Assembly (NCBI GenBank): GCA_964658305.1
Contig: OZ210884.1
Location: forward strand, 3,224,001 to 3,288,000
Reading direction: 5' to 3'
Origin: Leptogorgia sarmentosa
Lineage: Eukaryota
DNA: 64,000 nucleotides
The position numbers and the translations under genes were made by a program. Below the pieces are notes generated by a model. It searched no databases and was not told the origin of the DNA. It saw only the letters and a list, made by a program, of their open reading frames with translations. Positions 1 to 49,600 of the stretch are shown one piece after another (position 1 is the first letter of the stretch; each line of letters begins with the position of its first letter).

Positions 1-3000
1 AATTTTTCTTTTATGTTTTCGTTGAAAAATAAAGTTTTTCCATTTTCATTTCAATGCCAAATCAAGTCTATTGTAGAGAATGACTTAGGTCAATTACTTA
101 AGATTGACACATTAATTATTATAGTTCACCAAACTAAACAATATTTTCAATTTTAGTTCTGCCAACAACACAGATTTCAACAACTGTGACAACATCCAAG
201 ACAGGTAATTTTTCTTTTATGTTTTCGTTGAAAAATAAAGTTTTTCCATTTTCATATCAATGCGAAATGGAGTCTTTTATAGAGAATGTCTTAGGTCAAT
301 TATTTAAGATTGTCAAATTAATTTTTATAGTTCGCAAAACTAAACAACATTTTCAATTTTAGTTCTGCCAACAACACAGATTTCAACAACTGTGACAACA
401 ACCAACACAGGTCATTTCCCTTTTCTGTTTTCATTGAAAAATAAAGATTTTCCATTTCCATATCAACGCGAAATCAAATCGTTTGTGGAGAATGACTTTC
501 GTCAATGATTTTCTATTGTGAAATTATTAATATTTCACGAAACTAAACAATGTTTTCAATTTCAGTTCTGCCAACAACACAGATTTCAACAACTGTTACA
601 ACATCCAAGACAGGTCATTTTTCTTTGATGTTTTCGTTGAAAAATAAAGTTTTTCCATTTCCATATCAATGCGAAATCGAGTCTTTTAAAGAGAATATCT
701 TAGATCAATTATTTAATATTGTCAAATTAAATATTATAGGTCGCAAAACTAAGCAACATTTTCAATTTTAGTTCTGCCAACAACACAGATTTCAACAACT
801 GTGTCAACAACCAAGACAGGTAATTTCTCGTTTATGTTTTCGTTAAAAAATAAAGATTTTCCTTTTCGATATCAATGCGGAATCAAGTCGTTTGTGGAGA
901 ATGACTTTGGTCAATGATTTTCTATTGTAAAATTATTAATATTTCGCGAAACTAAACAATATTTTCAATTTTAGTTCTGCCAACAACAAAGATTTCAACA
1001 ACTGCGACAACACCCGTCCTTGGTAGTTTTCTCATAACTTATTGTTCTAAAAACAACTTTCTCATGCCTTTCATTCCCATACATTTGAATGCCTCATTTT
1101 GTGGGGAGAATACTTGTTATAAACTAGCTATTATGCAAATTATTTATAGATGGCGAAACTAAACAATATTTTCAATTTTAGTTCTGCCAACAACACAGAT
1201 TTCAACAACTGCGACAACATCCAAGACAGGTAATTTTTCTTTTATGTTTTCGTTGAAAAATAAAGTCTTTCCATTTTCATATTAATGTGAAATCAAGTCT
1301 TTTATAGAGAATGTCTTAGGTCAATTATTTAAGATTGTCAAATTAATTATTATATTTCGCAAACCTGAACAACATTTTCAATTTTAGTTCTGCCAACAAC
1401 ACAGATTTCAACAACTGTTACAACATCCAAGACAGGTAATTTTTCTTTTATGTTTTCGTTGAAAAATACCATTTCCATATCAATGCAAAATCAAGTCTTT
1501 TGTAGAGAATGATTTAGGTCAGCGACTTCCTATTGTAAAACTATTAATATATAGCCAAACTAAATAATATTTTCAATTTTAGTTTTGCCAACAACCCAGA
1601 TTTCAACAACTGCGACAACATTCAAGACAGGTAATTTTTCTTTTATGTTTTCGTTGAAAAATAAAGTTTTTCCATTTCCATATCAATGCGAAATCGAGTC
1701 TTTTATATAGAATGTCCTTGGTCAATTATTTAAGATTAGCAAATTAATTATTATATTTCGCAAAACTAAACAACATTTTCAATTTTAGTTCTGCCAACAA
1801 CACGGATTTCAACAACTGCGACAACATCCAAGACAGGTAATTTTTCTTTTATGTTTTCGTTGAAAAATAAAGTTTTTCCATTTTCATATCAATGCGAAAT
1901 GGAGTCTTTTATAGAGAATGTCTTTGGTCAATTATTTAAGACTGTTAAACTAATTATTATAGTTCGCAAAACTAAACAACATTTTCAATTTTAGTTCTGC
2001 CAACAACGCAGATTTCAACAACTGTTACAACATCCAAGACAGGTAATTTTTCTTTTATGTTTTCGTTGAAAAATACCATTTCCATATCAATGCAAAATCA
2101 AGTCTTTTGTAGAGAATGATTTAGGTCAGCCTATTGTAAAACTATTAATATATAGCCAAACGAGATAATATTTTCAATTTTAGTCTTGCCAACAACCGAG
2201 ATTTCAACAACTGCGACAACATTCAAGACAGGTAATTTTTCTTTTATGTTTTCGTTGAAAAATAAAGTTTTTCCATTTCCATATCAATGCGAAATCGAGT
2301 CTTTTATATAGAATGTCTTTGGTCAATTATTTAAGATTAGCAAATTAATTATTATATTTCGCAAAACTAAACAATATTTTCAATTTTAGTTCTGCCAACA
2401 ACACAGATTTCAACAACTGCGACAACATCCAAGACAGGTAATTTTTGTTTTATTTTTTCGTTGAAAAATAAAGTTTTTCCATTTCCATATCAATGCGAAA
2501 TCAAGTCTATTGTAGGGAATGACTAAGGTCAATTACTTAAGATTGACACATTAATTATTATAGTTCGCCAAAGTAAACAATATTTTCAATTTTAGTTCTG
2601 CCAACCACACAGATTTCAACAACTGCGACAACATCCAAGACAGGTAATTTTTTTTTTTATGTTTTCGTTGAAAAATAAAGTTTTTCCATTTTAATATCAA
2701 TGCGAAATCAAGTCTTTTGTACAGAATGTCTTAGGTCAAATATTTAAGATTGTCAAATTAATTATTATAGTTCGCAAAACTGAACAACATTTTCAATTTT
2801 AGTTCTGCTAACAACCCAGATTTCAACAAGTGTTACAACATCCAATACAGGTCATTTTTCTTTTATGTTTTCGTTGAAAAATACCATTTCCACATCAATG
2901 CAAAATCAAGCCTTTTGTAGAGAATGATTTAGGTCAGCGATTTCCTATTGTAAAGCTATTAATATATCGCCAAACTAAACAATATTTTCAATTTTAGTTT

Positions 3001-6000
3001 TGCCAACAACCCAGATTTCAACAACTGCGACAACATCCAAGACAGGTAATTTTTCTTTTATGTTTTTGTTGAAAAATAAAGTTTTTCCATTTTCATATCA
3101 TTGAGAAATGGAGTCTTTTAAAGAGAATGTCTTAGGTCAATTATTTAAGATTGTCAAAATAATTATTATAGTTCGCATAACTAAACAATATTTTCAATTT
3201 TAGTTCTGCCAACAACACAGATTTCAACAACTGCGACAACATCCAAGACAGGTAATTTTTCTTTTATGTTTTCGTTGAAAAATAAAGTTTTTCCATTTCC
3301 ATTTCAATGCCAAATCAAGTCTATTGTAGAGAATGACTTAGGTCAATTACTTAAGATTGACACATTAATTATTATAGTTCGCCAAACTAAACAATATTTT
3401 CAATTTTAGTTCTGCCAACAACACAGACTTCAACAACTGTGACAACATCCAAGACAGGTAATTTTTATATTATGTTTTCGTTGAAAAATAAAGTTTTTCC
3501 ATTTTCATATCAATTCGAATTGGAGTCTTTTATAGAGAATGTCTTAGGTCAATTATTTAAGATTGTCAAATGAATTTTTATAGTTCGCAAAACTAAACAA
3601 CATTTTCAATTTTAGTTCTGCCAACAACACAGATTTCAACAACTGTGACAACAACCAACACAGGTCATTTCCCTTTTCTGTTTTCGTTGAAAAATAAAGA
3701 TTTTCCATTTACATATCAACGCGAAATCAAGTCGTTTGTGGAGAATGACTTTCGTCAATGATTTTCTATTGTGAAATTATTAATATTGCACGAAACTAAA
3801 CAATATTTTCAATTTTAGTTCTGCCAACAACACAGATTTCAACAACTGCGACAACAACCGTCCTTGGTAGTTTTCCTTTAACTTATTGTTCTAAAAACAA
3901 CTTTCTCATGCATTTCATTCCCATACATTTGAATGCTTCATTTTGCGGGGAGAATACTTGTTATAAACTAGCTATTGTGCAAATTATTTATAGATGACGA
4001 AACTAAACAATCTTTTCAATTTTAGGTATGGCAACAACACAAATTTCAACAACTGTAACAACATCCAAGACAGGTAATTTTTGTTTTATTTTTTCGTTGA
4101 AAAATAAAGTTTTTCCATTTCCATATCAATGCGAAATCAAGTCTATTGTAGGGAATGACTTAGGTCAATTACTTAAGACTGACACATTAATTATTATAGT
4201 TCGCCAAACTAAACAATATTTTCAATTTTAGTTCTGCCAACAACACAGACTTCAACAACTGTGACAACATCCAAGACAGGTAATTTTTATATTATGTTTT
4301 CGTTGAAAAATAAAGTTTTTCCATTTTCATATCAATTCGCATTGGAGTCTTTTATAGAGAATGTCTTAGGTCAATTATTTAAGATTTTCAAATTAATTTT
4401 TATAGTTCGCAAAACTAAACAACGTTTTCAATTTTAGTTCTGCCAACAACACAGATTTCAACAACTGTGACAACAACCAACACAGGTCATTTCCCTTTTC
4501 TGTTTTCGTTGAAAAATAAAGATTTTCCATTTACATATCAACGCGAAATCAAGTCGTTTGTGGAGAATGACTTTCGTCAATGATTTTCTATTGTGAAATT
4601 ATTAATATTGCACGAAACTAAACAATATTTTCAATTTTAGTTCTGCCAACAACACAGATTTCAACAACTGCGACAACAACCGTCCTTGGTAGTTTTCCTT
4701 TAACTTATTGTTCTAAAAACAACTTTCTCATGCATTTCATTCCCATACATTTGAATGCTTCATTTTGCGGGGAGAATACTTGTTATAAACTAGCTATTGT
4801 GCAAATTATTTATAGATGACGAAACTAAACAATATTTTCAATTTTAGGTATGGCAACAACACAAATTTCAACAACTGTAACAACATCCAAGACAGGTAAT
4901 TTTTGTTTTATTTTTTCGTTGAAAAATAAAGTTTTTCCATTTCCATATCAATGCGAAATCAAGTCTATTGTAGGGAATGACTTAGGTCAATTACTTAAGA
5001 CTGACACATTAATTATTATAGTTCGCCAAACTAAATAATATTTTCAATTTTAGTTCTGCCAACAACACAGATTTCAACAACTGCGACAACATCCAAGACA
5101 GGTAATTTTTCTTTTATGTTTTCGTTGAAAAATAAGGTTTTTCCATTTTCATATCAATGCGAAATCAAGTCTATTGTAGGGAATGACTTAGGTCAATTAC
5201 TTAAGATTGACACATTAATTATTATAGTTCGCCAAACTAAACAATATTTTCAATTTTAGTTCTGCCAACAACACAGATTTCAACAACTGCGACAACATCC
5301 AAGACAGGTAATTTTTTTTTTATGTTTTCGTTGAAAAATAAAGTTTTTCAATTTTAATATCAATGCGAAATCAAGTCTTTTGTACAGAATGACTTAGGTC
5401 AAATATTTAAGATTGTCAAATTAATTATTATAGTTCGCAAAACTGAACAACATTTTCAATTTTAGTTCTGCTAACAACCCAGATTTCAACAAGTGTTACA
5501 ACATCCAATACAGGTCATTTTTCTTTTATGTTTTCGTTGAAAAATACCATTTCCATATCAATGCAAAGTCAAGCCTTTTGTAGAGAATGATTTAGGTCAG
5601 CGATTTCCTATTGTAAAAGTATTAATATATCGCAAAACTAAAAAATATTTTCAAATTTAGTTTTGCCAACAACCCAGATTTCAACAACTGCGACAACATT
5701 CAAGTCAGGTAATTTTTCTTTTATGTTTTAGCTGAAAAATAAAGTTTTTCCATTTTCATATCAATGCGAAATGGATCTTTTATAGAGAATGTCTTAGATC
5801 AATTATTTAAGATTGTCAAATTAATTGTTATAGTTCGCAAAACTAAACAACATTTTCAATTTTAGTTCTGCCAACAACACGGATTTCAACAACTGCGACA
5901 ACATCCAAGACAGGTAATTTTTCTTTTATGTTTTCGTTGAAAAATAAAGATTTTCCATTTTCATATCAATGCGAAATGGAGTCTTTTATAGAGAATGACT

Positions 6001-9000
6001 TAGGTCAAATATTTAAGATTGTCAAATTAATTATTATAGTTCGCAAAACTAAACAACATTTTCAATTTTAGTTCTGCCAACAACACAGATTTCAACAACT
6101 GTTACAACATCCAAGACAGGTAATTTTTCTTTTATGTTTTGGTTGAAAAATACTATTTCCATATCAATGCAAAATCAAGTCTTTTGTACAGAATGACTTA
6201 GGTCAAATATTTAAGATTGTCAAATTAATTATTATAGTTCGCAAAACTGAACAACATTTTCAATTTTAGTTCTGCTAACAACCCAGATTTCAACAAGTGT
6301 TACAACATCCAATACAGGTCATTTTTCTTTTATGTTTTCGTTGAAAAATACCATTTCCATATCAATGCAAAATCAAGCCTTTTGTAGAGAATGATTTAGG
6401 TCAGCGATTTCCTATTGTAAAACTATTAATATATCGCCAAACTAAACAATATTTTCAATTTTAGTTTTGCCAACAACCCAGATTTCAACAACTGCGACAA
6501 CATTCAAGTCAGGTAATTTTTTTTTTATGTTTTCGCTGAAAAATAAAGTTTTTCCATGTTCATATCAATGCGAAATGGATCTTTTATAGAGAATGTCTTA
6601 GATCAATTATTTAAGATTGTCAAATTAATTGTTATAGTTCGCAAAACTAAACAACATTTTCAATTTTAGTTCTGCCAACAACGCAGATTTCAACAACTGC
6701 GACAACATCCAAGACAGGTAATTTTTCTTTTATGTTTTCGTTGAAAAATAAAGTTTTTCCATTTTCATATCATTGAGAAATGGAGTCTTTTATAGAGAAT
6801 GTCTTAGGTCAATTATTTAAGATTGTCAAAATAATTATTATAGTTCGCATAACTAAACAATATTTTCAATTTTAGTTCTGCCAACAACACAGATTTCAAC
6901 AACTGCGACAACATCCAAGACAGGTAATTTTTCTTTTATGTTTTCGTTGAAAAATAAAGATTTTCCATTTCCATATCAACGCGAAATCAAGTCGTTTGTG
7001 GAGAATGACTTTCGTCAATGATTTTCTATTGTGAAATTATTGATATTGCACGAAACTAAACAATATTTTCAATTTTAGTTCTGCCAACAACACAGATTTC
7101 AACAACTGCGACAACAACCGTCCTTGGTAGTTTTCCTTTAACTTATTGTTCTAAAAACAACTTTCTCATGCATTTCATTCCCATACATTTGAATGCTTCA
7201 TTTTGCGGGGAGAATACTTGTTATAAACTAGCTATTGTGCAAATTATTTATAGATGACGAAACTAAACAATATTTTCAATTGTAGGTATGGCAACAACAC
7301 AAATTTCAACAACTGTAACAACATCCAAGACAGGTAATTTTTGTTTTATTTTTTCGTTGAAAAATAAAGTTTTTCCATTTCCATATCAATGCGAAATCAA
7401 GTCTATTGTAGGGAATGACTTAGGTCAATTACTTAAGATTGACACATTAATTATTATAGTTCGCCAAACTAAACAATATTTTCAATTTTAGTTCTGCCAA
7501 CAACACAGATTTCAACAACTGCGACAACATCCAAGACAGGTAATTTTTTTTTTTATGTTTTCGTTGAAAAATAAAGTTTTTCCATTTTAATATCAATGCG
7601 AAATCAAGTCTTTTGTGCAGAATGACTTAGGTCAAATATTTAAGATTGTCAAATTAATTATTATAGTTCGCAAAACTGAACAACATTTTCAATTTTAGTT
7701 CTGCTAACAACCCAGATTTCAACAAGTGTTACAACATCCAATACAGGTCATTTTTTTTTTATGTTTTCGTTGAAAAATACCATATCCATATCAATGCAAA
7801 ATCAAGCCTTTTGTAGAGAATGATTTAGGTCAGCGATTTCCTATTGTAAAACTATTAATATATCGCCAAACTAAACAATATTTTCAATTTTAGTTTTGCC
7901 AACAACCCAGATTTCAACAACTGCGACAACATTTAAGTCAGGTAATTTTTCTTTTATGTTTTCGCTGAAAAATAAAGTTTTTCAATTTTCATATCAATGC
8001 GAAATGGATCTTTTATAGAGAATGTCTTAGATCAATTATTTAAGATTGTCAAATTAATTGTTATAGTTCACAAAACTAAACAACATTTTCAATTTTAGTT
8101 CTGCCAACAACACAGATTTCAACAACTGCGACAACATCCAAGACAGGTAATTTTTCTTTTATGTTTTCGTTGAAAAATAAAGTTTTTCCATTTTCATATC
8201 AATGCCAAATCAAGTCTATTGTAGAGAATGACTTAGGTCAATTACTTAAGATTGACACATTAATTATTATAGTTCGCCAAACTAAACAATATTTTCAATT
8301 TTAGTTATGCCAACAACACAGATTTCAACAACTGTGACAACATCCAAGACAGGTAATTTTTCTTTTATGTTTTCGTTGAAAAATAAAGTTTTTCCATTTT
8401 CATAGCAATTTGAAATGGAGTCTTTTATAGAGAATGTCTTAGGTCAATTATTTAAGATTGTCAAATTAATTTTTATAGTTCGCAAAACTAAACAACATTT
8501 TCAATTTTAGTTCTGCCAAAAACACAGATTTCAACAACTGTGACAACAACCAACACAGGTCATTTCCCTTTTCTGTTTTCGTTAAAAAATAAAGATTTTC
8601 CTTTTCGATATCAATGCGGAATCAAGTCGTTTGTGGAGAATGACTTTGGTCAATGATTTTCTATTGTAAAATTATTAATATTTCGCGAAACTAAACAATA
8701 TTTTCATTTTTAGTTCTGCCAACAACAAAGATTTCAACAACTGCGACAACACCCGTCCTTGGTAGTTTTCTCATAACTTATTTATCTAAAAACAACTTTC
8801 TCATGCCTTTCATTCCCATACATTTGAATGCCTCATTTTGTGGGGAGAATACTTGTTATCAACTAGCTATTGTGCAAATTATTTATAGATGGCGAAACTA
8901 AACAATATTTTCAATTTTAGTTCTGCCAACAACACAGATTTCAACAACTGCGACAACATCCAAGACAGGTAATTTTTCTTTTATGTTTTCGTTGAAACAT

Positions 9001-12000
9001 AAAGTCTTTCCATTTTCATATCAATGCGAAATCAAGTCTTTTATAGAGAATGTCTTAGGTCAATTATTTAAGATTGTCAAATTAATTATTATATTTCGCA
9101 AACCTGAACAACATTTTCAATTTTAGTTCTGCCAACAACACAGATTTCAACAACTGCTACAACATCCAAGACAGGTAATTTTTCTTTTATGTTTTCGTTG
9201 AAAAATAAGGTTTTTCCATTTCCATATCAATGCAAAATCAAGTCTTTTGTAGAGAATGATTTAGGTCAGCGACTTCCTATTGTAAAACTATTAATATATA
9301 GCCAAACTAAATAATATTTTCAATTTTAGTTTTGCCAACAACCCAGATTTCAACAACTGCGACAACATTCAAGACAGGTAAATTTTCTTTTATGTTTTCG
9401 TTGAAAAATAAAGTTTTTCCATTTCCATATCAATGCGAAATCGAGTCTTTTATATAGAATGTCCTTGGTCAATTATTTAAGATTAGCAAATTAATTATTA
9501 TAGTTCGCATAACTAAACAATATTTTCAATTTTAGTTCTGCCAACAACGCAGATTTCAACAACTGTTACAACATCCAAGACAGGTAATTTTTCTTTTATG
9601 TTTTGGTTGAAAAATACCATTTCCATATCAATGCAAAATCAAGTCTTTTGTAGAGAATGATTTAGGTCAGCGACTGCCTATTGTAAAACTATTAATATAT
9701 AGCAAAACGAAATAATATTTTCAATTTTAGTCTTGCCAACAACCCAGATTTCAACAACTGCGACAACATTCAAGACAGGTATTTTTTCTTTTATGTTTTC
9801 GTTGAAAAATAAAGTTTTTCTATGTTCATATCAATGCGAAATGGATCTTTTATAGAGAATGTCTTAGATCAATTATTTAAGATTGTCAAATTAATTGTTA
9901 TATTTCGCAAAACTAAACAACATTTTCAATTTTAGTTCTGCCAACAACGCAGATTTCAACAACTACGACAACATCCAAGACAGGTAATTTTTCTTTTATG
10001 TTTTCTTTGAAAAATAAAGTTTTTCCATTTTCATATCATTGAGAAATAGAGTCTTTTATAGAGAATGTCTTAGGTCAATTATTTAAGATTGTCAAATTAA
10101 TTATTATAGTTCGCATAACTAAACAATATTTTCAATTTTAGTTCTGCCAACAAGACAGATTTCAACAACTGCGACAACATCCAAGACAGGTAATTTTTCT
10201 TTTATGTTTTCGTTGAAAAATAAAGTTTTTCCATTTTCATATCATTGAGAAATGGAGTCTTTTAAAGAGAATGTCTTAGGTCAATTATTTAAGATTGTCA
10301 AATTAATTATTATATTTCGCGAAACTAAACAATATTTTCAATTTTAGTTCTGCCAACAACAAAGATTTCAACAACTGCGACAACACCCGTCCTTGGTAGT
10401 TTTCTCATAACTTATTGTTCAAAAACAACTTTCTAATGCCTTTCATTCCCATACATTTGAATGCCTCATTTTGTGGGGAGAATACTTGTTATAAACTAGC
10501 TATTGTGCAAATTATTTATAGATGGCGAAACTAAATAATATTTTCAATTTTAGTTCTGCCAACAACACAGATTTCAACAACTGCGACAACATCCAAGACA
10601 GGTAATTTTTCTTTTATGTTTTCGTTGAAAAATAAAGTTTTTCCATTTTCATATCAATGCCAAATCAAGTCTATTGTAGAGAATGACTTAGGTCAATTAC
10701 TTAAGATTGACACATTAATTATTATAGTTCGCCAAACTAAACAATATTTTCAATTTTAGTTCTGCCAACAACACAGATTTCAACAACTGCGACAACATCC
10801 AAGACAGGTAATTTTTCTTTTATGTTTTCGTTGAAAAATAATTAGTCTTTCCATTTAAATATCAATGCGAAATCAAGTCTTTTATAGAGAATGTCTTTGG
10901 TCAATTATTTAAGATTGTCAAATTAATTATTATATTTCGCAAACCTGAACAACATTTTCAATTTTAGTTCTGCCAACAACACAGATTTCAACAACTGTTA
11001 CAACATCCAAGACAGGTAATTTTTCTTTTATGTTTTCGTTGAAAAATACCATTTTCCTTATCAATGCAAAATCAAGTCTTTTGTAGAGAATGATTTAGGT
11101 CAGCGACTTCCTATTGTAAAACTATTAATATATAGCCAAACTAAATAATATTTTCAATTTTAGTTTTGCCAACAACCCAGATTTCAACAACTGCGACAAC
11201 ATTCAAGACAGGTAATTTTTCTTTTAGGTTTTCGTTGAAAAATAAAGTTTTTCCATTTCCATATCAATGCGAAATCGAGTCTTTTATATAGAAAGTCCTT
11301 GGTCAATTATTTAAGATTAGCAAATTAATTATTATAGTTCGCATAACTAAACAATATTTTCAATTTTAGTTCTGCCAACAACGCAGATTTCAACAACTGT
11401 TACAACATCCAAGACAGGTAATTTTTCTTTTATGTTTTGGTTGAAAAATACCATTTCCATATCAATGCAAAATCAAGTCTTTTGTAGAGAATGATTTAGG
11501 TCAGCGACTGCCTATTGTAAAACTATTAATATATAGCAAAACGAAATAATATTTTCAATTTTAGTCTTGCCAACAACCCAGATTTCAACAACTGCGACAA
11601 CATTCAAGACAGGTATTTTTCTTTTATGTTTTCGTTGAAAAATAAAGATTTTCCATTTTCATATCAATGCAAAATCGAGTTTTTTATAGAGAAAGTCTTA
11701 GGTCAATTATTTAAGATTGTCAAATTTATTATTATGGTTGGCAAAACTGAACAACATTTTCAATTTAGTTCTGCCAACAACCCAGATTTCAACAACTGTG
11801 ACAACACCCGACCTTGGTAGTTTTCTTATAATTTTTTGTTCTAAAAACAAGTTTCTCATGCATTTTATTCCCATACATTTGAGTTCTTCTTTTATTGGGG
11901 AGACTATCTTTTATAAACTAGCTATTGACAAATTATTTATAGATGGCGAAACTAAGCATGCAGTATTTTCAATCTTAGATCTGGCAACAGCACAGATTTC

Positions 12001-14270
12001 AACAACGGCTACAACAACCAAGCAAGGTAATTTTCCTTTGAGGTCTTGGATGGAAAATAAAGTTTTTCCATTTCCATATTTATATCAATGCGAAATCAAG
12101 TCTTTTGTACCGAATGGCTTAGGTCAATGATTTTCTATATTGCAAAAATATTAATATTTCGCCAAACTAAACAATATTTTCTATTTTAGTTCTGCCAACA
12201 ACACAGATTTCAACAACTGTGACAACACCCGACCTTGGTAGTTTTCTTCTAATTTTTTGTTCTAAATACAAGTTTCTCATGCCTTTTATTCCGATGCATT
12301 TGAGTGCTTCATTTTGTGGGGAGACTATCTTTTATAAACTAGCTATTGACAAATTATTTATAGATGGCGAAACTAAACAGTATTTTCAATTTTAGATCTG
12401 GCAACAGCACAGATTTCAACAACAGCTACTACAACCAAGCAAGGTAATTTTCCTTTTAGGTCTTCGATGAAAAATAAAGTTTTTCCATTTCCATATCAAT
12501 GCGAAATCAAGTCTTTTGTAGAGACTGACTTAGGTCAATGATTTTCTATTGTAAAATTATTAATATTTCGCCAAACTAAACAATATTTTCAATTTTAGTT
12601 CTGGCAACAACACAGATTTCAACAACTGTGACAACACCTGACCTAGGTAGTTTTCTTATATTTTTTGTTCTAAAAACAAGTTTCTCATGCATTTTATTCC
12701 CATACATTTGACTGCTTCATTTTGTGGGGAGACTATCTTTTGTAAACTAGCTATTGACAAATTATTTATAGATGGCGTAACTAAACAGTATTTTCAATTT
12801 TAGATCTGGCAACAGCACAGATTTCAACAACTGCGACAACTGCCAAGCAAGGTAATTTTTCTTTTAGGTCTTCGTTGAAAAATAAAGTTTTTCGATTGCA
12901 TATCAATGCGAAATGATATCTTTTATAGACAATGACTTAAGTAAAATATTTAATATTGTCAAATTATTTATATTTCACGAAACTAAACAATATTTTCAAT
13001 TTTAGTTCTGCCAACAACACAGATTTCAACAACTGTGACAACACCCGATCTTGGTAGTTTTCTTATAATTTCGTATTCTAAAAACAAGTTTCTGGTGCAT
13101 TTTATTTGCTTACTTTGAATGCTTCATTTTGCGGGGAGACTATCTTTTATAAACTAGCTATTGAGAAATTATTTATAGTTCGCGCGAAACTAAACAATAT
13201 TTTCAATCTTAGATCTGGCAACAAAACAGATTTCAACAACAGCTACAACAACCAAGCAAGGTATTTTTTCTTTTAGGTCTTCGTTGAAAAATAATGTTTT
13301 TCCATTTTAATATCAATGCGAAATCAAATCTTTTATAGAAAATGAATTAGGTCAATTTTTTGATATTCTCAAATTATTTATAGTTGGCGAAACTAAACAA
13401 TATTTTCAATTTTGGTTGTGCCAATAACTCCAATTTAAACTACTGTGACAAGTATACCGAACTATGTACTAAATTTTGTTATAATTTGTTGTACTAAAAA
13501 CCAGTTTTTTGCATTTTTTCCCGTTTTTTGTGCATGGCGACAATCTTTTATAATCTGGCTATTCTTTAATATTTCTTTGGGAGGAAATGGGTCGATAATG
13601 ACAGATCGCTGGAGAATAGCAGATCAGTCGCACATTAACACAAAAACAAGTCTTTAATATAGAGTCTTGTTTGATTTTATTATGTAATATGGTAATATAC
13701 TTTCAATTTTAGTGTTTCCAAGAACACCAACTTCAATAACTGTGAAAACAACCGAGCGAGGTAATTTTTTATTATTTCGTTGGAAATTGAAGTTTCCAGG
13801 TTCATATCAAAAAATTATTTGAAAGTTCGGGAAACTGAAGAGCATTTTAAATTTTTGTTTGTGCCAAAATCACCGATTTCTCCAACAGTGACAACAACCA
13901 AGCTTGGAAATTATTTCTTATAACTTGATGTTTTAAAAAACAAGTTTCTGGTACATTTTATTCGGTTACATTTGAATGTTTCATTTCTTGCGGAAACAAT
14001 GTTTCATAAATTAGCTATTCCAATATTATTTCTTTGGCTGTAAAATCATGTCCATAATGATTGATCGCTGGAAATTGGAAGATCAGTCGCCCATCAACAC
14101 AACAAGTCTTTAATAGCATCTATTTGATTTGATTTAGAATATAGCTAGTGAAATTATCTATAGGTCGGAGGACTAAACCATATTATTTGCAATCTTAGTT
14201 CTGGCAACAACACCAAATTCAACAGCAGTCACAACAACCAAGCAAGGTAATTTTTTTCAATTTCGCTGTA
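1..14270 (+). repeat. Tandem array of ~195-210-bp exon+intron units (about 69 units counted by eye; continues upstream of the window)
   Basis: The motif ttttcaattttag-TTCTGCCAACAACACAGATTTCAACAACTGYGACAACATCCAAGACAG-gtaatttttc recurs every ~205 bp (exon starts 157, 363, 566, 772, 975 ... 13213, 13713, 14199). Units become more diverged after ~11.7 kb. Confidence 0.97.
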
Positions 14271-15202
14271 AAATGAACTTGCTTTCATGATGACATAGGG
14301 GCAACAGCCGATGTATTATCTCCGAAATTGAGGTTTGATTACATACATGGTTTATTTTGAAGCATCAAATAATGCTGGGCAGACCGAATGATGATTTTAC
14401 AATTTCGCTGCAAATAGAAAAGAATCGTAGGGACGAAATTTTCCATATTATCACCGCATTGCGCATGCGTTGTTCTAAGAATGTCAAAAAGCATTCGGGT
14501 TTCTTGAAGCAGTCCTGATTGTTGATGTATCATGTATGAATGTCAATTGTGAAAATTAATTGGTCGAAAGACATTTCAATGAAACGCGATTACAGCTGTG
14601 GAAAATGGTTGTGAATTCTTCGAATAATCGACAACAATTTTAGAGAAATGTATGCGTTGCAGGCAAGAAATATGCCGATTAAGGAGAGGTTCGGAGTTTT
14701 TATCGCTGCACGATCATGAATATTGCAAACTAATACAAAGGCATAGTTTCAAACGCATACGCAGCTACGATTTCCACTACATTGCATTGCATTGCATTAT
14801 ATTGCATGGCCTTGTATTACAATACCAACACTACGGCGGAGCGAATTCACTCACTGTAGTCCTAAAGTGATGTCAAAAACAGACTACTAATAAGCCACTT
14901 ATGTCCCCTATTACCGCTAAGACGATGAGACTGCTTTAAGTATTTTAATACAAGATATACTACGTGCAGGCCAAACGTAGTTTATTAATTTCTCTCATGG
15001 AAAAACAAAGAATCGAAAGGCTTTCACTCTCTCGAGTTAATCAATCATAATCTATAAGCGTATTGATTAACATATTAAACAATGTTCTTTTCTTTTAAAG
15101 GCAAGAAAGACGGTTATAGGACTCTGCTCATAGCAGCCATTGTTTCAATGCTATTGCTTTTATTGCACTGATCGTTGTCGTGATTATGATTATTTGTGTA
15201 AA
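157..15202 (+). CDS. Mucin-like Thr/Ser-rich stalk protein, 5'-partial: ~67 micro-exons of 48 nt (first 157-204, last 14199-14246) plus a membrane-anchor exon 15101-15202
   Basis: Each 48-nt block has a polypyrimidine/TAG acceptor and a GT donor, is phase 1-1, and reads e.g. VLPTTQISTTVTTSKT, VLPTTKISTTATTPVL or DLATAQISTTATTTKQ. I saw no stop or indel in these blocks, while the spacers have many indels. The last block splices in frame into a hydrophobic exon. Confidence 0.85.
15101..15202 (+). CDS. Transmembrane/hydrophobic anchor exon with an apparent 1-nt deletion near 15148-15150
   Basis: Acceptor ttcttttcttttaaag at 15100 and donor gtaagt at 15203. The phase-1 frame reads GKKDGYRTLLIAAIVSMLLLLLH* (TGA 15169-15171). 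The shifted frame continues AIAFIALIVVVIMIICVK to the donor. Confidence 0.75.
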
Positions 15203-15342: not shown

Positions 15343-15389
15343 GATTAAAGACAAGAAATAGGAGGAGGAGGAGGTGTATGAAACTCAAG
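15343..15389 (+). pseudogene. Putative cytoplasmic-tail exon with an in-frame stop (KIKDKK*EEEEVYETQ)
   Basis: Acceptor tctgtgtttcag at 15342. Its phase matches the repaired TM exon. Basic stop-transfer residues are followed by TAG (15359-15361) and an acidic tyrosine motif. The donor would be a non-canonical GC. Confidence 0.45.
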
Positions 15390-16116
15390 GCAAAAGTCCA
15401 GTCATGGAATTCTATTATAGAGATGATATAATAAAGGACTTGCTCGGATTTCTTAATGTAGATTCATACTTTAGTTTACTATTGCAATCAATTTAAGAAT
15501 AGTTCACGAAAAGTAATTGATGTGCAACGAATAACCATGCATATATAGTAGGGACACAGTAGGGAGTCATCCACAATTTAACCCTATATCCGTAATCAAT
15601 TGTGGTATTTTGATTAAGCATAAGAAAAAGTTACACGTAAAATTATAGACAACAATCTCCAACATGAAAATAGCCGTTTTCGACTTGTATACATCATATA
15701 TTCCACATATTGATTTACAATAACGTCATATAATACATAAGATAATATCACTGGAATGTCAATGATTGGAGAATGATGCAAATTGGTTTACGCTCATTCC
15801 AAATGACGTTATAATTTGTAATGTAGTCCGCCTGCGCATTTTTACTACAGTTTTCTCAGTGTAACGTTGAATTAAATAGTGACGAGTTGCACTAATTAAA
15901 TTGTTAATGAGGACTTACGGTCGCTTTGTGTTTTCCTACTGTTATTTTTTATTTCTTCTAACTTTCAATAACTTTGATGATTTTTTTTGTCCTTGCACGT
16001 CACACGTGTTTTTTTGTCGTAGAAATTGTCGACGAATGTCTTTACGTTGGAGATTCATGCATCGCTGACACTTTTTCCTCGTAACATTGGTTTATCAAAT
16101 TTTAAATGTAGATTTA

Positions 16117-17115
16117 GGCCCCTATTACACTATACCGGATTACTTTTCGTTCCGGATCAATTTAGACACGGATGAAAAAAATGGCAGCGATTACACTACG
16201 CCGCTCCGCTGTCGAAGACGTCTTCGTATCGTATAATGTTGGATATTTAGGGCATACAAACACGACATTATTTGCAGCACGCTTGCAGCGGTCAATACAA
16301 ACATAAAAATATTTTGTATAAGGCAACCATTTTGGAAGTGAAATTGACAAAATTAATTGTAATGAATTCAAAACCTTCGCACCAAGAAGATGCACCGAAG
16401 CGTACCGGATTAGTGTTTACACTTGGCTTTTCCCGGTACGGCACATACCGGATTACTTTTCGTATCACGAACGAAGCGGAGTGATTTTTGCACCGAAGCT
16501 AGAATCGGGAATATATGGGGGTTTTTTATCGAGTATACTTTATAATTTATAGAGTATAGTCAATAAACAATCTGCGACTTCACGGGAAATGAATAGAAAA
16601 TTAGAAATATATTTTGCATATAGAATATATTTGCAAAGAAAAAGTTGATTATTATACTAGTATAACGCGTGTTAGGCCTACCAATGTAGGTATCTTCGGA
16701 TATCATGTTGGACTTTATTGTAAGGTAGATCGCTATGCTCTAGTTTTATGCTGCGGTTTTATAAGGAAAAGTTTAAATATTTTTAAATCAGTTTTGACCG
16801 TTCAGTAAATTATTTGAACTACAAATGCACAATGTAAATGACTTTGAAGCAGTACGTGGAGAATATTTGTAGTAAAATCACTTAAAAAATCTCTTTCAAA
16901 GTAAACGTGTTGTTGTAGCTTCAGCAGTTGCGAAATTCATGACCACGTGGGTGACGCACATCATTTGCGCATGTGCAGAACTGCGATAATCATGTATTTA
17001 GCAAGTCAGGAATTTCGCGTCACACCGGATTACAGTGGCGTAGTGTAAACAACAGCCCAATCCGGTATAAAAATCGCTCCGCTCCGATGCAATCCGGTAT
17101 AGTGTAATAGGGGCC
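16117..17115. mobile_element. Non-autonomous TIR element (PIF/Harbinger-like MITE)
   Basis: 25-bp TIR GGCCCCTATTACACTATACCGGATT ... AATCCGGTATAGTGTAATAGGGGCC, flanked by TTA on both sides (16114-16116, 17116-17118), with internal TACCGGATTA repeats. Confidence 0.88.
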
Positions 17116-17262
17116 TTAAAGAATGTCAATATATTTAGCTTTGTTGCATTTACGTACTGCCGTTCTTGTTGAAGATATGTAAATTCATATTCTGGAAATA
17201 CATTTAATGTAATGTTATAGAGTTCCAATATATCATTTTACCGCTGTTTCTGCTCAATTCAG

Positions 17263-19696: not shown

Positions 19697-21646
19697 TCAA
19701 TTCTTCGGAACACAAAATACAACTTCTTTTTGCTTCTTGTATAGCTGGTTTCCATCTTTAGACAACTCAGCAATTGGAACAGTATCATTCCTGAGCACAA
19801 AACCAGTCGGACAAACAGTAAGTTTTTTGGTTTTAGAATTCTGCTGTGCGTGCACTATTCCTTTAGCACATCCGACAACGGCCGTCTCCTCCTTTATTAC
19901 CGCATATTTGACTTTAATTTTAACTTCATGGCATCCTCGGCTTTTGTTACATTTCACTCCGTAGGGAAACTTCGCGGGGAAAATTTTGTCTGATAGCCTA
20001 CCATACATATTGCATGTACCAGCGCTCCCATTTTGAATTGAACGAATCTGTCGTCCAGCTGATGGGGAACTTCCCATTATGCTAATCATAATTAGTAAGA
20101 TCAACGCCTGTATAAAGGAACAAAAGAATTAGGCATATATTTGACAAAAACATTATTATAAACAACTAAAAATAATAATTAAATAATAATTTAAATTATT
20201 CTAATACGCATCGAGCCTGAAAAACGGCAAAATTCCGTCGTTTTTTCTTCGGGTTAATAATGTTAACTTATTGACTGAGAGTGAGGGCTGTACGGGAAAA
20301 TATCAAACTGAAATCTTGTTCAACTTATTATACTGTACTTCATTAATCTGTAAAAAACAGTTTGCTATCCTTCATTTTAAACGTCGTCGCTTATTTTAAC
20401 ACTTTTCTACTTTAACAAATAAAATTTTATCGAATTTTAAAGTTTTTGTGATAGTTTTCCAGGCAGGGCAATAAAAATTGCGCAGTGCCCGTGGGCTATA
20501 CGCGAAAATCCTGCCCGTCAGCACTCAATCAAATTGCGCCATTCGCCAAAACAAATGCTTGCCATATAATAATAACCGTTCTTGTTTGAGTACTTGTAAT
20601 TACATTGTCGTGGAACTAATTGTCTGCATTACATGGCTTTATACCGAAATATCACTCGTACTCTCGTAAGCGTTTCGTTGACCGAGTAACTCGCTTATCC
20701 TGCATGGTAACTCGCTTTGAATAGAAAGTTAGAGGTTTCCCCGTGAATTGTTTACATGAGCCATACGGGTAACTCGCTCCAGCAAGTTTTCGATGGGAAC
20801 AGATAGAATCTCGCTCAGGCCAGATAAATGCTTTGTCGTGTAAACGCTTTGCCCGGGAAACTCGTCCAGCCGGGAATAATTTTTGCCAACAGCGCATGGG
20901 TATATTATACAAATAATGAATGTTTAAGTGTGCAATGGTAAGAATATTTTCATGAGGTGAAAGATGGAATGTTCTATTGAACAAGGCGAAGCCGAGTTGA
21001 ATGGAACATTCCATCTTTCACCGAATGGGGAAATGGAACTTTCTATTCAATATCACGTCTTCGTCTATTTCCTCGTTTAAAGCAAGACTGGAATCACTAT
21101 TCAGTCCTTCAAGATTTACCGACTCCCACACGGCAATCAGATAGAACAGAACGTATTATTTAAATTGCGTAATCTTAAATTTCACTACGTAACTTAAAAT
21201 TTTCTTAATATTTATTGTGTATATTATTTCTGATTTTTGTTGCTACTTGTGTACAGATGGTCGTCCGTGTTTAAATAAAGTTTATGTATCTATGTATGTG
21301 TACGTGACCGTAATTAACCAATCAATCGACCTGAACGTAATAATACATACTACTATACAACAGGCACGAGGGACCCCATCTAACTTCTCGCTGTATTGAA
21401 CAATATGCCAAGTAAGTCGGGTCCATATAAACAGACAGCTTGTTTGTCACGGCGAAGCAAGTACTAACTCGTTCAATCTGGCGCCATATAGACAGGCTCT
21501 TAGTGACTTAAAATAATTAATTCGCCGCTCGAGAACGTACGGGCTTGACACTGTCACAAAATTAAACGTCATGATATTTACAATGAAGAAACAACACTTA
21601 CATGCGTCATTGAGGGCAAGTTGGATGTAGTCTTGGAATATATCAT
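19697..21646 (-). CDS. Small secreted 6-Cys protein, copy 1 (exon 1 21646-21602, exon 2 20107-19697; 151 aa), tentatively cystine-knot/IL-17-like
   Basis: Exon 1 is ATG...MIYSKTTSNLPSMTH with a phase-0 gtaagt donor. The acceptor ttcttttgttcctttatacag precedes ALILLIMISIMGSSPSAG (signal-peptide-like), an RQIR convertase-type site, then TC..FP..KC....GC..VVGC..VCP..FCV. TATA box upstream; ORF intact in all four copies. Confidence 0.85.
20255..20573. mobile_element. Degenerate Crypton-type non-autonomous remnant in the intron (present in all units); ends in GCCATATAATAA
   Basis: ttattgactgagagtgagggctgtacgggaaaatat ... caatcaaattgcgccattc ... ccatataataa resembles anthozoan Crypton-derived repeats (recognition from memory, not searched). 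Confidence 0.45.
20902..21345. mobile_element. Older non-autonomous derivative of the Crypton at 28932-32576 (copies at ~33397-33830, ~41867-42310, ~50340-50780)
   Basis: Shares the left end (tacaaataatgaatgttt...GGCGAAGCC palindrome) and the right end (gaaatggaactttctattcaatatcacgtgacc...aaccaatcaa..gacctgaa) with the autonomous element. Confidence 0.85.
21059..21301 (+). mobile_element. 5'-truncated LINE 3' end inserted in the old Crypton derivative (all four units)
   Basis: Interrupts atatcacgt|gacc with an ACGT duplication. It begins with an ORF2-C-terminus-like SISSFKARLESLF and ends in AATAAA plus a (TATG)n-like tail. Confidence 0.6.
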
Positions 21647-28079: not shown

Positions 28080-31000
28080 TCAATTCTTCGGAACACAAAA
28101 TACAACTTCTTTTTGCTTCTTGTATAGCTGGTTTCCATCTTTAGACAACTCAGCAATTGGAACAGTATCATTCCTGAGCACAAAACCAGTCGGACAAACA
28201 GTAAGTTTTTTGGTTTTAGAATTCTGCTGTGCGTGCACTATTCCTTTAGCACATCCGACAACGGCCGTCTCCTCCTTTATTACCGCATATCTGACTTCAA
28301 TTTTAACTTCATGGCATCCTCGGCTTTTGTTACATTTCACTCCGTAGGGAAACTTCGCGGGGAAAATTTTGTCTGATAGCCTACCATACATATTGCATGT
28401 ACCAGCGCTCCCATTTTGAATTGAACGAATCTGTCGTCCAGCTGAGGTGGAACTTCCCATTATGCTAATCATAATTAGTAAGATCAACGCCTGTATAAAG
28501 GAACAAAAGAATTAGGCATATATTTAACAAAAACTATTAAACAACAAAAAATAATAATTAAATTAAAATATATCGAGCCTGAAAAACGCAAAATTGCAGT
28601 CGTTTTTTTCGGGTTAATAATAATGACTCACTGACTGCGAGGGTGAGGGCATGTACGGAAAATATAAAACTGAGCTCTTGCTCAAATTATTATACTGCAT
28701 GTATTTCATTAAGTACATTCTATTTCTAGTACATTTTAAATATCGTCGCTTATTTTAACACTTTTCTACTTTAACAAATAAAATTTTATCGAATTTTAAA
28801 GTTTTAATTTGTGATTGTTTTCCAGGCAGGGCAATAAAAATTGCGTATTGCCCCTGGGCTATACGAGAAAATCCTGCCCGTCAGCGGTCAATCAAATTAC
28901 GCCATTCACCAAAACAAATGCTTGCCATATAATAATATACAAATAACTAGAAATACATACATGCAGCAACCCCTCGCCTTACTAACCAATTAATGCAACT
29001 ATATTTTTGGAACATGAAGTACTACAAAGGCTGCCTGAGGTTGTTGTCATGGCAACACGATCGGAAATTCATATTTCTGTAATTTTTTGAAGCTGTCAAA
29101 TATTTAAGAAATAGATAACGAGTCGCGTGCCATTATGCTGTTTTGTTATATAGTTGGTGTCAAAGTTCAATTTTCCTGTTTGCTGATTGGACAAAACCGT
29201 ATCACGTGCCGGTCCACAAAACGTCATGTTCGCCAACCGGTCAAAAATCAAAAAATTATTGACCGGGCAACAATTAAATGGGCACAATGCGCATGCGCGT
29301 CAACCGTGAAGTCCAAAGTTCATTCAATCGTACGATGTTTTGAAATTTTTACGATGTTTTGATGGAGTAAGGCGTCCCATTCAATGTCTGTTTTTTGGTT
29401 TCAAAGTCCACTCCAGTATTAAACCGGTGAATTCATTCATATTTTGACACTAAACTATATAACAAAACACTTATTTACTGAAACCTCGGGAAACATTGTG
29501 TTTTGTGGCCCCTCGACCGCCATTGTTGCCCTCGGCTTCGCCTCGGGCAACAACGGCAGTCTCGGGGCCACAAAACACAATGTTTCCCTCGGTCTCAGTA
29601 AATAAGTGATAAATAATGCACGAGGGAAATGTTGTGAGAATACGAGAGAATCGCGTAAAACACGAGGCGTAGCCGAGTGTTTTACGCGATTCTCGAGTAT
29701 TCTCACAACATTGCCCGAGTGCAATTATAACAGCATAATGGCACGCGACGAGTTTTTCTATTTCTTTTATAATATAAGAGAATATTAGCGCAACAAAAAA
29801 CTTCGTTAGGAAGATCAAAATTACAATTCTCTTTACATGTAATCAAGCGTGTTCTCAAATGTTGCCAAGCAGCAACACAGCTTTATTCCTTTAGCTGAGC
29901 GAAAGCAAACAATTCAAGCGTTTTTTATGGATGTATTTTTAGTATATATGTATTTTTATTGTCTTTTTGTCAAACCAAAGAGTCGCGGAAGAAATTTAGT
30001 AACTAGATGCGTGCATTACGCTGTTATAATGCACGCTCATTAGCCAATCACGTTGCAGATTTTACCCTGCTTATATTATAACAGCTTTTATCTTTGTTTT
30101 ATTGGCATTTTTTTAAAATTTCGAGAACCATTTGTTATCCGTACGCTATTAGGACTAATATAAACTTGAATTTGGTGCGAAATACTACATTTATTTGCAT
30201 AAAACGGTTTAATTAAGTCAGTCTTTGATATGAAAAAAATTCCTGGCAGTGTTCGCTCGCGTTGTTTTGGAGTAAAGTTTGTAAATATTTTGTGAAGTCT
30301 TGCCTTTAAAATGATAAACTTATACTCTGGAATTGAGCCGTGAATAGATTAAATGCGGCTACGGCGACCTTTCGTACAAATAGTAGACTGTAGATAGTAA
30401 ATACGCAAAACAAAGTTCACTGCCGGCAACCTATTGACGAACTTATCTTGTGTTTCAATCCGTAGTCGTTTGTTCCCTTTCTCAGCGTTTTATATCTTCT
30501 GAGAAGGCTTTCTAAGTCTTACAGCGTAGGTCTTGTCTTTGTTTTCGCCTTTCCAAAGGCCCAAAAGCTTTAAAAAGCTTTGGCTCTTCATGATAGTCCA
30601 GTAGTCACCATAATTTTGAGATCAGTGGTGACCACCCTTCGACGATGACCCAAAATGGCCGCCAAATCGAGCAACTTTGAACTCGCTATGCGGAATTATT
30701 ACCCTCGCCCCGGGCTAACGCCCGGACGGCGCTTCGCGCCGTGGCTCGGGGATGAATGTTTATGAGTGCAATGGTAAGAATATTTTCATGAGGTGAAAGA
30801 TGGAATGTTCTATTCAACGAGGCGAAGCCGAGTTGAATGGAACATTCCATCTTTCACCGAATGAAAATATTCTTACCATTGCACGAATAAAAACATTCAT
30901 TATTTGTTTTATATAATACCAAAATAACTAAATTAGCCAATTGCTTTTCAAGAACAGTTTATTAAAACACTATAATTTTCAAACACAATCATATTCTGTA

Positions 31001-46660: not shown

Positions 46661-49600
46661 TGCAATCCGGTATAGTGTAATAGGGGCCTTAAAGAATGTC
46701 AATATATTTAGCTTTGTTGCATTTACATACTGCCGTTCTTGTTGAAGATATGTAAATTCATATTCCAAAAATACATTTAATGTAATGTTATAGAGTTCCA
46801 AAATATCATTTTACCGCTGTTTCTGCTCAATTCAGTTGATTGCCAAGGATATAACTTATGAGAACGGAACACGTTGAAAAACAAAGAGCACTTGAACTAC
46901 TCAAACGTTTTGATAAGAGCTACTTGAAACACTTCAATCACACAAAAACAACCACTTTAACCCCTCAATGGCATGACAACAACCACTTCAACCACTCGAT
47001 CAAAACAGTTGAAGACAAATCACTCGAAAGCTGATAGCAACAACTCGATATTATAACTTCAGGCGAGGATATTTCGACAGTTTTTTTTACTGTAAACACA
47101 GTACACACATTTACTGTAAACACAGTAACACAGCGAAACTTTTAATAGAAAAGATAACTTTATGCTAAATTTAGGAACAATAAGATTTGCCCATTTATTA
47201 ATATGTGAGCGTGCGTAGTTTTGTATATTTTTTATACTAATCACTTTCTGTATTGGAAAGATGAGAAACGCAGAATTTTCCGTCGATTATAGCGACCGCT
47301 GTATATATCCATCTATAACATTAATATGCGTGTTCATTGCATTTTCAAAATGAATTATTTACACATCGAACAGACTTCTTTAATTAATAACCCTCAAGAG
47401 TAGAATTGCGTAGCAAATTGGAGCAAAAATTGGAGTAGGTAACAGGGATAGATGGCCCTATTTTTTGCAAGTAGTTATTTATTTCGACTAATGGGTGATT
47501 GTAAACAGCGCTAGAAAATGCGGACATGGGAACGAATGTATACGTTCTCGCCCCAGTGTCCTGGTTCACTCGGATATTACTATTTTACAAGAAATATATT
47601 TTGGTGCTGACCACTGATCTATACTATTACTGCATCGCACATCGTATTGTGTTCAGTGACTCAATTTAATGAGATTCGGTTTATAAATGTGTCAAATTTC
47701 GAACTAAGCTAAAGCGATTGCTTTTCAAGTTAAGTTGGCTATAATCAACACATTTTCCGATGTAACTTGTGAAATAAAGCTCCAAACATTTCGTAACGTA
47801 TAGAAACTTTTTAGATATCTCACAACACCAGAATAAATTTGAGTGTGGCCATATGCATCCAATATGGCCACCAGCGGCTTCATTTATTTATAGCAGATGC
47901 ACTATATAAAATTATCATGGTCATCCATTTACGACATAAAATATCTTTTAGCAGATATAAAAAACTAAAAATGTACGTCTGAAGGAAGAGCTATGTATAG
48001 TTATATGTATTTTTTGGAAAAATGTACGACATCAATTTTAAAAGCCTTTTATTTATATTATCATGTAATATCTTTTAAATGATAGCTACATGTATATCGA
48101 TGCTTAATTGAGCTTACATTACAATGATCATAGGGCAAGTTAAACGTTCATTAATTATTACATTTAATTTAATTCGACATTATATATTTGATATAAAGTA
48201 TACAAATATATTATATAATGGTTCTTACCAGGAAACGGTTGTACTAATGCTGCCTCTTTTTACCGTGGGTAAAAGGCCTGGAACTAGCTACCGAATAGAA
48301 AATGCATTTGATGTTTTAAATCAGTTATATATTTTGTGTTTCTTCTTGAAACTTTTTAATGATGCTAGGTGAAAAGTCTAGCATAAATTTGAATACAAAG
48401 TGAATTATATTTCACGAGATATTAAATTGATTGTGTAGAATGCGAGAGAGGCTCCGAATAATTGACAAAATAAAAATGTTCAAACACGCGCATATTGTAA
48501 GTTCCAAATTTTTTTTGTGATAAAAGCCCAGGACCAAAGATCGTTTAAATTCCATTTGCTGGTCTAAGTCACTTACATCTATAACATTTGATGTATAAAC
48601 TTTGTAATCATGCTGAGTAGTGAAGAAGGCAAGTCATTCACAAATTTGAAAACAATGTAAATTACATTTAACAAGATATTACTTTTGTTGGGTAAAAAAA
48701 TGGTGTTCTATTATAGGTGTTTGTGTCTTAGATAAAAACTAATCGTGGCGAAATCCTCTGGATCTGAATGTTAAAACTCACGGCGTATGTAAGGTGAACC
48801 TTATTTTGTTTCGTTTACAAGCCTTGTTAATAGCATTCGATTAAAAGTCATTATCCGTTTAATATCTCGCAAATATTTCGTAATCAATTGTGGGTAAGGA
48901 CAACTGTAGTTGGTCGCAAATTTCATGAGATATTAGATTGATCGTAGTGAAAAGTGCTGTTCTATTGAATAACCAATCCCAGTTTTTTTCCGTGCCATCA
49001 TATCACCTGGTCATTATATATAATATCATATAATTTATACTGTATTTATATGTGGTATGAATATTCTTATATTTATGAACTTGCATTTATATTTTTTATA
49101 GTAAGTCTTAGTGTTAAGGCATATGGTTTTTGGCTATTGGTATATCAATTCTTCGGAACACAAAACATAACTTTTTTTTGCTTCTTGTATAGCTGGTTTC
49201 CATCTTTAGACAACTCAGCAATTGGAACAGTATCATTCCTGAGCACAAAACCAGTCGGACAAACAGTAAGTTTTTTGGTTTTAGAATTCTGCTGTGCGTG
49301 CACTATTCCTTTAGCACATCCGACAACGGCCGTCTCCTCCTTTATTACCGCATATCTGACTTTAATTTTAACTTCATGGCATCCTCGGCTTTTGTTACAT
49401 TTCACTCCGTAGGGAAACTTCGCGGGGAAAATTTTGTCTGATAGCCTACCATACATATTGCATGTACCAGCGCTCCCATTTTGAATTGAACGAATCTGTC
49501 GTCCAGCTGAGGTGGAACTTCCCATTATGCTGATAATAACTAGTAAGATCAACGCCTGTATAAAGGAACAAAAGAATTAGGCATATATTTGACAAAAACA

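What the first reader, a model, noticed from the sequence alone, without database searches (positions are those of the whole stretch)
1..15202. A 'satellite' that is a gene: about 67 tandem 48-nt symmetric micro-exons encoding a >1000-aa mucin stalk
Seen: every ~205-bp unit contains acceptor, 48 nt and donor. The 48-nt blocks keep their length and have no stops, while the ~150-nt spacers carry indels (e.g. the aaaaataccattt deletion class, variable T runs). The blocks splice in frame into a hydrophobic exon. Known: PTS mucin repeats usually lie within one large exon, and phase 1-1 exons can be skipped or duplicated without frameshift. Inference: exon and intron are amplified together as the repeat unit, so stalk length could be tuned in 16-aa steps by unequal crossover or exon skipping. 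Repeat maskers and gene finders would likely miss this gene.
Basis: partly seen in the sequence, partly recalled or inferred. Interest (0 to 1): 0.85.

Follow-up and report, generated by a model that had tools for sequence, protein, structure and literature searches.

The report
Mucin stalk written exon-per-repeat
What looks like a 205-base satellite keeps perfect splice signals around a 48-base block in at least 67 copies and is likely the repeated part of a cell-surface mucin gene, a design already known from chicken and blood-fluke mucins, but its predicted membrane-anchor exon is frameshifted here and splicing is untested.

Summary
The array is real. All 65 core units (157-13260) hold an exactly 48-nt block between AG and GT, and two diverged 3' units do too. 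The only invariant GT and AG columns of the unit alignment are those two sites, and all 26 inferred indel events are in spacers. Spliced in silico: 1071 aa, 42% Thr, no stop.

Two first-reader claims weaken. 'No stops' alone is not significant (P about 0.29), and amino-acid changes look neutral. The blocks do not read through the hydrophobic exon: the array frame stops at 15169-15171, and the stronger half of the membrane segment, ending on the donor at 15203, is in another frame. That means an assembly error, a null allele, a recent pseudogene or a new short hydrophobic tail.

No reads were examined, no spliced product was found in protein collections, and the 5' end lies outside the window. 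The design is published (chicken Muc13, Schistosoma SmPoMuc), and this scan noted similar arrays in other genomes. New member of a known kind, large in scale.

The parts
1..13451 (+). Tandem array of ~205-nt exon+intron cassettes; runs off the 5' edge of the window
   Evidence: TRF period 206, 65.9 copies; units listed
157..13260 (+). 65 core 48-nt phase 1-1 blocks (first 157-204, last 13213-13260), 16 codons each, Thr-rich, separated by 141-163-nt GT-AG spacers with a branch-point-like CT(A/G)A motif about 23 nt before the AG in most units
13416..13463 (+). Dead-looking unit: acceptor GG, donor AT, in-frame TAA
13713..13760 (+). Diverged unit with AG/GT, 48 nt, open frame (12 mismatches to the nearest core block)
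13859..13906 (+). Dead-looking unit: acceptor GT, donor GA
14199..14246 (+). Last unit with AG/GT, 48 nt, open frame (8 mismatches to the nearest core block); followed by an 854-nt unique spacer
15101..15202 (+). Predicted membrane-anchor exon, 102 nt, pyrimidine-rich acceptor and GTAAGT donor. The hydrophobic segment is split over two frames: array frame 15121-15168 then TGA 15169-15171; other frame 15144-15200
15343..15435 (+). Candidate next exon (end not defined). Entered from the second frame it reads a short basic tail, a TAG at 15359-15361, then an acidic Tyr-containing stretch; polyadenylation-like hexamer at 15430
   Evidence: inference from sequence only

Best explanation
The array is a run of at least 67 exon-like 48-nt blocks with intact splice signals that likely encodes the threonine-rich, predicted O-glycosylated stalk of a single-pass cell-surface mucin, whose membrane exon carries a one-base frame break that is likely an assembly error or a null allele. 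Shown: cassette anatomy, splice-site conservation, absence of indels in the blocks, block duplications, a more diverged 3' edge, and the frame break. Inferred: each block is spliced as a symmetric phase 1-1 exon adding 16 residues; whole cassettes are gained and lost by unequal crossing-over without shifting the frame; selection acts on splicing and length, not on exact residues; and the ~1070-aa or longer stalk holds an unseen N-terminal domain away from the membrane or forms a glycocalyx. Odds for the cassette-gene part alone: about 0.9. The figure given covers the whole statement, including the type I anchor.
For: In a 232-column alignment of 64 units the only invariant GT and the only invariant AG are the predicted donor and acceptor. 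These 4 columns show 0 changes on a spanning tree where 30 of 135 core spacer columns show 0 (P about 0.002). All 26 tree-inferred indel events are in spacers, and the longest gap-free run (53 columns; next longest 30) is AG + block + GTA. Substitutions per site are 1.94 in blocks against 2.62 in spacers (p 0.004). The two most diverged live units keep AG/GT, 48 nt and an open frame although their flanking spacers are only 66-70% like the core. Retaining an intron gives a stop in 63 of 64 cases, a reason to keep the sites. Block copies: units 17-20 vs 21-24 differ by 0-4, 44-47 vs 53-56 by 0-5, 4-8 vs 42-46 by 2-8; block and downstream-spacer distances correlate at r 0.67. Product: T 42%, S 10%, P 6%, no Cys. 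The out-of-frame half of the anchor exon is the most hydrophobic 15-mer and 19-mer in six frames of the 50.7 kb downstream of the core array, it ends on a consensus donor, and a T4 run (15158-15161) lies in the zone where the frames could cross.
Against: No RNA or DNA reads were examined, so splicing, expression and the reality of the frame break are untested. Two protein searches with a profile of the block peptides found no spliced product (0 hits; 2 unrelated hits); both tests were weak. No coding-level selection: 14 synonymous and 29 non-synonymous alleles against 44 and 93 possible (p 0.85), and equal diversity at the three codon positions. Private alleles are as dense in blocks as in spacers (11/48 vs 35/135), and only about 1 splice-site hit is expected among them, so recent loss of function cannot be excluded (P0 0.35). 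A TAG in the tail exon, just before an acidic Tyr stretch, could be a second lesion. No signal peptide or ectodomain is in the window.
Confidence: 0.58

Rival explanations
1. The gene is active as assembled. A fixed frameshift ended the protein after about 16 hydrophobic residues, turning a type I membrane mucin into a GPI-type, loosely anchored or shed mucin, and the old cytoplasmic tail exon then decayed.
For: The array frame reads a polar spacer, then a hydrophobic 15-mer (mean Kyte-Doolittle 2.92), and stops. The stop is 31 nt before the next donor, inside the ~50-nt zone that escapes nonsense-mediated decay if the next exon is the last (rule recalled). The tail exon has a TAG before an acidic Tyr stretch. 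All 65 core units keep their splice sites.
Against: No clear small-residue omega site precedes the hydrophobic stretch (judged by eye; no GPI predictor was run). The out-of-frame half is still a strongly hydrophobic, stop-free run with a consensus donor, so any change is recent. The basic tail plus TAG is equally a natural short stop-transfer tail.
Confidence: 0.2
2. A recently dead mucin gene. The frame break (and perhaps the tail TAG) inactivated it, and the cassettes now turn over as a satellite that still shows old selection on splice sites.
For: Frame break and possible second stop; neutral synonymous/non-synonymous pattern; private alleles equally dense in blocks and spacers, with no power to detect recent relaxation; two dead units at the 3' edge.
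Against: 0 of 65 core units have lost AG or GT and 0 have a block indel, so death would have to be very recent. Neutral-looking residue change is usual in PTS repeats (own knowledge).
Confidence: 0.17
3. An ordinary non-genic satellite whose founding unit happened to have AG and GT 48 nt apart, kept alike by homogenisation.
For: Units are not independent and many are recent copies (nearest neighbours often differ by 0-9 sites); 'no stops' is not significant; one antisense frame is also stop-free.
Against: Splice columns, the pyrimidine tract and the branch-point-like motif are the conserved part, indels avoid only the block, old edge units keep the signals, and a unique hydrophobic exon with proper sites follows on the same strand.
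Confidence: 0.05

Closest known systems
Chicken Muc13 (Lang et al. 2006, PMC1552070; abstract, section 8 in full and passages seen)
   Same: Transmembrane mucin whose PTS domain is encoded one repeat per exon, with near-identical exons; the authors propose length control by recombination and by splicing.
   Different: At least 12 repeats of 20 aa there, at least 67 of 16 aa here. Muc13 has a SEA domain between PTS and membrane; here no exon able to hold one was found. EST support there, none here. No homology shown.
Schistosoma mansoni SmPoMuc (Roger et al. 2008, PMC2576457; passages seen)
   Same: Short exon plus flanking introns form a homogenised genomic tandem repeat; each exon gives one mucin repeat; repeat number differs between individuals; unequal crossing-over is invoked.
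   Different: 27-nt exon, ~1-kb unit, at most 20 genomic copies, multigene family, repeats directly after the signal peptide, no edge gradient. Here: 48-nt exon, ~205-nt unit, at least 67 copies, a clear 3' edge gradient and a downstream hydrophobic exon.
Coccidioides SOWgp (known only from a passage in PMC2576457)
   Same: Repeated exons with their introns evolve in concert by unequal crossing-over, with better conservation in the centre of the array, as seen here.
   Different: Fungal adhesin; the passage reports repeat-number polymorphism, which was not tested here. No homology tested.
Xenopus integumentary mucins FIM-B.1 and FIM-C.1
   Same: FIM-C.1 is called highly polymorphic through alternative splicing (PMC7177656, passage seen). 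That the repeats lie on separate small exons is recalled, not seen in a call.
   Different: Secreted gel-forming mucins; FIM-C.1 has trefoil domains.

Membership tests
Mucin-type (PTS-domain) glycoprotein | Long tandem repeat rich in Thr, Ser and Pro | tested here: met
   In-silico product 1071 aa: T 42%, S 10%, P 6%; S+T 40-58 and P 4-8 per 100 aa in every window. Depends on predicted splicing.
Mucin-type (PTS-domain) glycoprotein | Dense O-glycosylation | not testable with these tools
   Inferred from composition only.
Mucin-type (PTS-domain) glycoprotein | Spliced, translated transcript | tested here: inconclusive
   No reads examined; protein searches found no product but were weak.
Type I transmembrane mucin | In-frame transmembrane helix followed by a basic cytoplasmic tail | tested here: inconclusive
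   Both halves are present but in different frames; as assembled the array frame stops at 15169-15171.
Type I transmembrane mucin | N-terminal signal peptide | not testable with these tools
   The array runs off the window's 5' edge and no genome is held.
MUC13 family | SEA domain between the PTS domain and the membrane | tested here: not met
   Open phase-1 candidate exons in 14250-15100 are at most 69 nt, far below a SEA domain (about 110 aa, recalled). It works like Muc13 in gene design; it is not filed as MUC13.
SmPoMuc family | 27-nt exon giving a 9-aa repeat in a ~1-kb unit separated by purine microsatellites | tested here: not met
   48-nt block in a ~205-nt unit with plain 141-163-nt spacers.
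GPI-anchored mucin | Omega site, polar spacer and C-terminal hydrophobic tail | tested here: inconclusive
   A terminal hydrophobic 15-mer is present in the array frame; the omega site is unclear; no predictor was run.

The most novel reading that the evidence does not exclude
A living cell-surface mucin gene of 67 or more homogenised exon cassettes whose stalk length is set per transcript by skipping (the nine weak GTC-donor units first), and whose membrane anchor was recently converted by a single-base frameshift into a GPI-type or shed form, with the old signalling tail left decaying behind it.
Probability: 0.12. Interest if true: 0.62.

Novelty: new member of a known kind. Interest (0 to 1): 0.36.

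Why it matters
It is a clean, large example of a protein-coding region hidden inside what repeat finders call a satellite, so such genes are probably under-annotated. With 65 near-identical cassettes it shows in one array that selection can hold splice sites and exon length while leaving residues nearly free. It would also let the Muc13-era idea, that stalk length is tuned by exon skipping, be tested by long-read cDNA. The design itself is published, so the gain is scale and a test case, not a new principle.

Tried and rejected
No whole genome is held, so the N-terminal exons and paralogues could not be sought. Profile searches with 23 block peptides (alignment A1): 0 of 7984 scored candidates; 2 hits among 1.84 billion representatives, both unrelated on inspection. 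In one search the profile kept all 40 columns, including intron-derived residues, so these tests are weak. Earlier scan notes: none for this genome or for look-alike DNA. 'No stops' and dN/dS were rejected as evidence. A phase-changing exon or alternative acceptor that would rescue the membrane frame: none among the candidates listed for 14250-15140 (simple AG/GT filter, so very weak sites could be missed). A minus-strand gene was rejected: one antisense frame is open, but the alignment has no invariant CT column to serve as a minus-strand acceptor. Placing the organism through neighbouring ORFs gave only unnamed or 'hypothetical' ENA/JGI/NCBI records, no Atlas hit and an unusable fold (pLDDT 38). 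Six of 9 literature searches returned nothing; they used narrow phrases and do not show that the design is rare. PMC4948705 gave no relevant passage. No supplementary files were read.

Full report
OBSERVATION. The window begins inside a tandem array (1-13451, period 206, 65.9 copies, 79% matches) of about 29% GC. A motif scan found 66 units. The first 65 (157-13260) each hold an exactly 48-nt block with AG before and GT after. Acceptors are 64 TAG and 1 CAG; donors are 42 GTAATT, 10 GTAGTT, 9 GTCATT, 3 GTATTT and 1 GTAAAT. Spacers are 141-163 nt. Beyond the core, four degenerate units follow: 13713 and 14199 keep AG/GT and an open frame; 13416 and 13859 have lost both sites, and 13416 has a TAA. 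So 67 units look live, and the count is a minimum. Read as phase 1-1 exons, the 65 core blocks give 0 stops against 20 and 5 in the other frames, while the unspliced DNA has 225-238 stops per frame. The 67-block product is 1071 aa with 42% Thr, 10% Ser, 6% Pro and no Cys.

IS IT MORE THAN A SATELLITE? Units are copies of one another, so I counted events on a minimum spanning tree of 64 units instead of counting units. All 26 indel events are in spacers. They fall in 21 distinct gap segments; if these were placed at random, missing the block has P about 0.004 (my arithmetic, (157/205)^21). Several sit in homopolymer runs that the block lacks, so the true figure is weaker. The longest gap-free run is 53 columns, exactly AG + block + GTA; the next is 30. 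The four splice nucleotides show no change where 30 of 135 core spacer columns show none (P about 0.002), and they are the only invariant GT and AG in the alignment. A branch-point-like CT(A/G)A motif lies 22-26 nt before the acceptor in 62 of 71 sites examined. Blocks take 1.94 substitutions per site, spacers 2.62 (p 0.004).

Against this: the absence of stops is expected by chance (P about 0.29), synonymous and non-synonymous alleles are in neutral proportion (14:29 against 44:93, p 0.85), the three codon positions are equally diverse, and private alleles are as dense in blocks as in spacers. My reading is that selection has acted on splicing and length, not on exact residues, and that the most recent history is uninformative.

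HOW THE ARRAY GROWS. Runs of consecutive units recur at lags of 4, 9, 12, 24, 38 and others with 0-8 differences. Block and downstream-spacer distances correlate (r 0.67; upstream spacer 0.36). Sampled central units have 94-100% matches elsewhere in the core, units 58-65 only 82-94%, and the last four 61-79%. Multi-unit duplication with frayed ends is the pattern attributed to unequal crossing-over in the SOWgp passage of PMC2576457. Because the exon is symmetric, gain or loss of whole cassettes keeps the frame (inference). Intron retention gives a stop in 63 of 64 introns, which explains why splice sites would be kept even if single units are dispensable.

THE 3' END. After an 854-nt unique spacer comes a strong acceptor (13 of 17 pyrimidines) at 15099-15100 and a GTAAGT donor at 15203. 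This exon is 102 nt. In the array's frame it reads 22 residues, about the last 16 hydrophobic, and stops at 15169-15171. In another frame, 15144-15200 is the most hydrophobic 19-mer in six frames of the 50.7 kb downstream of the core array, and it runs to the donor. The two halves overlap and look like one membrane helix broken by a one-base shift between about 15139 and 15169; a T4 run at 15158-15161 lies in that zone. From the second frame the next candidate exon (15343) reads a short basic tail, a TAG, then an acidic Tyr-containing stretch. No listed candidate exon or acceptor rescues the frame. It leaves four states: assembly error, null allele, new short hydrophobic tail, or recent pseudogene. 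The sequence alone cannot separate them.

WHAT COULD NOT BE SHOWN. No genome is held and no sequencing reads were examined, so splicing, expression, skipping, length polymorphism and the N-terminus are all open. Two protein searches with the block peptides found no spliced product, which is weak evidence. The organism is probably an AT-rich animal (inference from the GT-AG introns and a DUF3504-like tyrosine recombinase at 31089-32342). Neighbouring ORFs matched only unnamed or hypothetical records.

COMPARISON. Chicken Muc13 is a transmembrane mucin with one 20-aa PTS repeat per exon, at least 12 repeats, EST support and the same proposal of length control by splicing (PMC1552070, section 8 read in full). 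SmPoMuc genes repeat a 27-nt exon with its introns as a ~1-kb unit up to 20 times, with repeat number varying between individuals (PMC2576457, passages). The locus works like these but belongs to neither family: no room for a SEA domain was found, and the unit differs from SmPoMuc's. Earlier notes of this scan describe similar arrays in a shark and another cartilaginous fish (28 and about 70-190 exons). These are unchecked notes, not support, but they suggest the design recurs. I found no paper on this locus; 6 of 9 searches returned nothing, which does not show absence from print.

VERDICT. A real exon-intron cassette array (about 0.9), most likely the stalk of a membrane mucin, with an unresolved frame break in its anchor. 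New member of a known kind. Interest 0.36, for scale, very short homogenised introns and a testable anchor question.

Noticed in passing
window ~17090-55016: Tandem segmental duplication of a ~8.4-kb unit, four to four and a half copies at 94-97% identity.
   Followed up: partly
window 19697-20128, 28080-28511, 40667-41098, 49145-49576 (minus strand): Each 8.4-kb copy keeps an open 143-aa frame with a hydrophobic start and several Cys, possibly the last exon of a small secreted protein. No Pfam hit, one 98% relative in ENA, no Atlas hit, fold unusable at pLDDT 38.
   Followed up: partly
window 31089-32342 (minus), inside ~28940-33390: Intact 417-aa tyrosine recombinase ORF (Phage_integrase E 2.6e-8; DUF3504 E 1.5e-5, below its cut-off) in a ~4.4-kb insertion found in only one copy of the 8.4-kb unit; Crypton-like (name recalled). 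34-nt repeats at 32427-32492 and 33246-33312.
   Followed up: partly
window 57059-57403 (minus): 114-aa open frame with 11 hits at 69-100% identity (one the window's own) in unnamed ENA/JGI records; no Pfam or Atlas assignment; probably one exon of an unannotated gene family.
   Followed up: partly
window ~16115-17120: About 1-kb element whose ends share a ~25-nt inverted repeat; MITE-like.
   Followed up: no
window 11702-12127: The 162-nt spacer between units 58 and 59 is the only one of 64 that is both a multiple of three and stop-free, giving a 142-aa genomic frame through two blocks. 14 of 64 spacers are stop-free in the exon frame up to the acceptor.
   Followed up: no
window units 58-65 (11769-13260): The 3' edge alternates two unit types (a period-2 pattern); one of them recurs singly in the core at units 5, 19, 23, 35, 43 and 51, suggesting two old cassette lineages.
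   Followed up: partly
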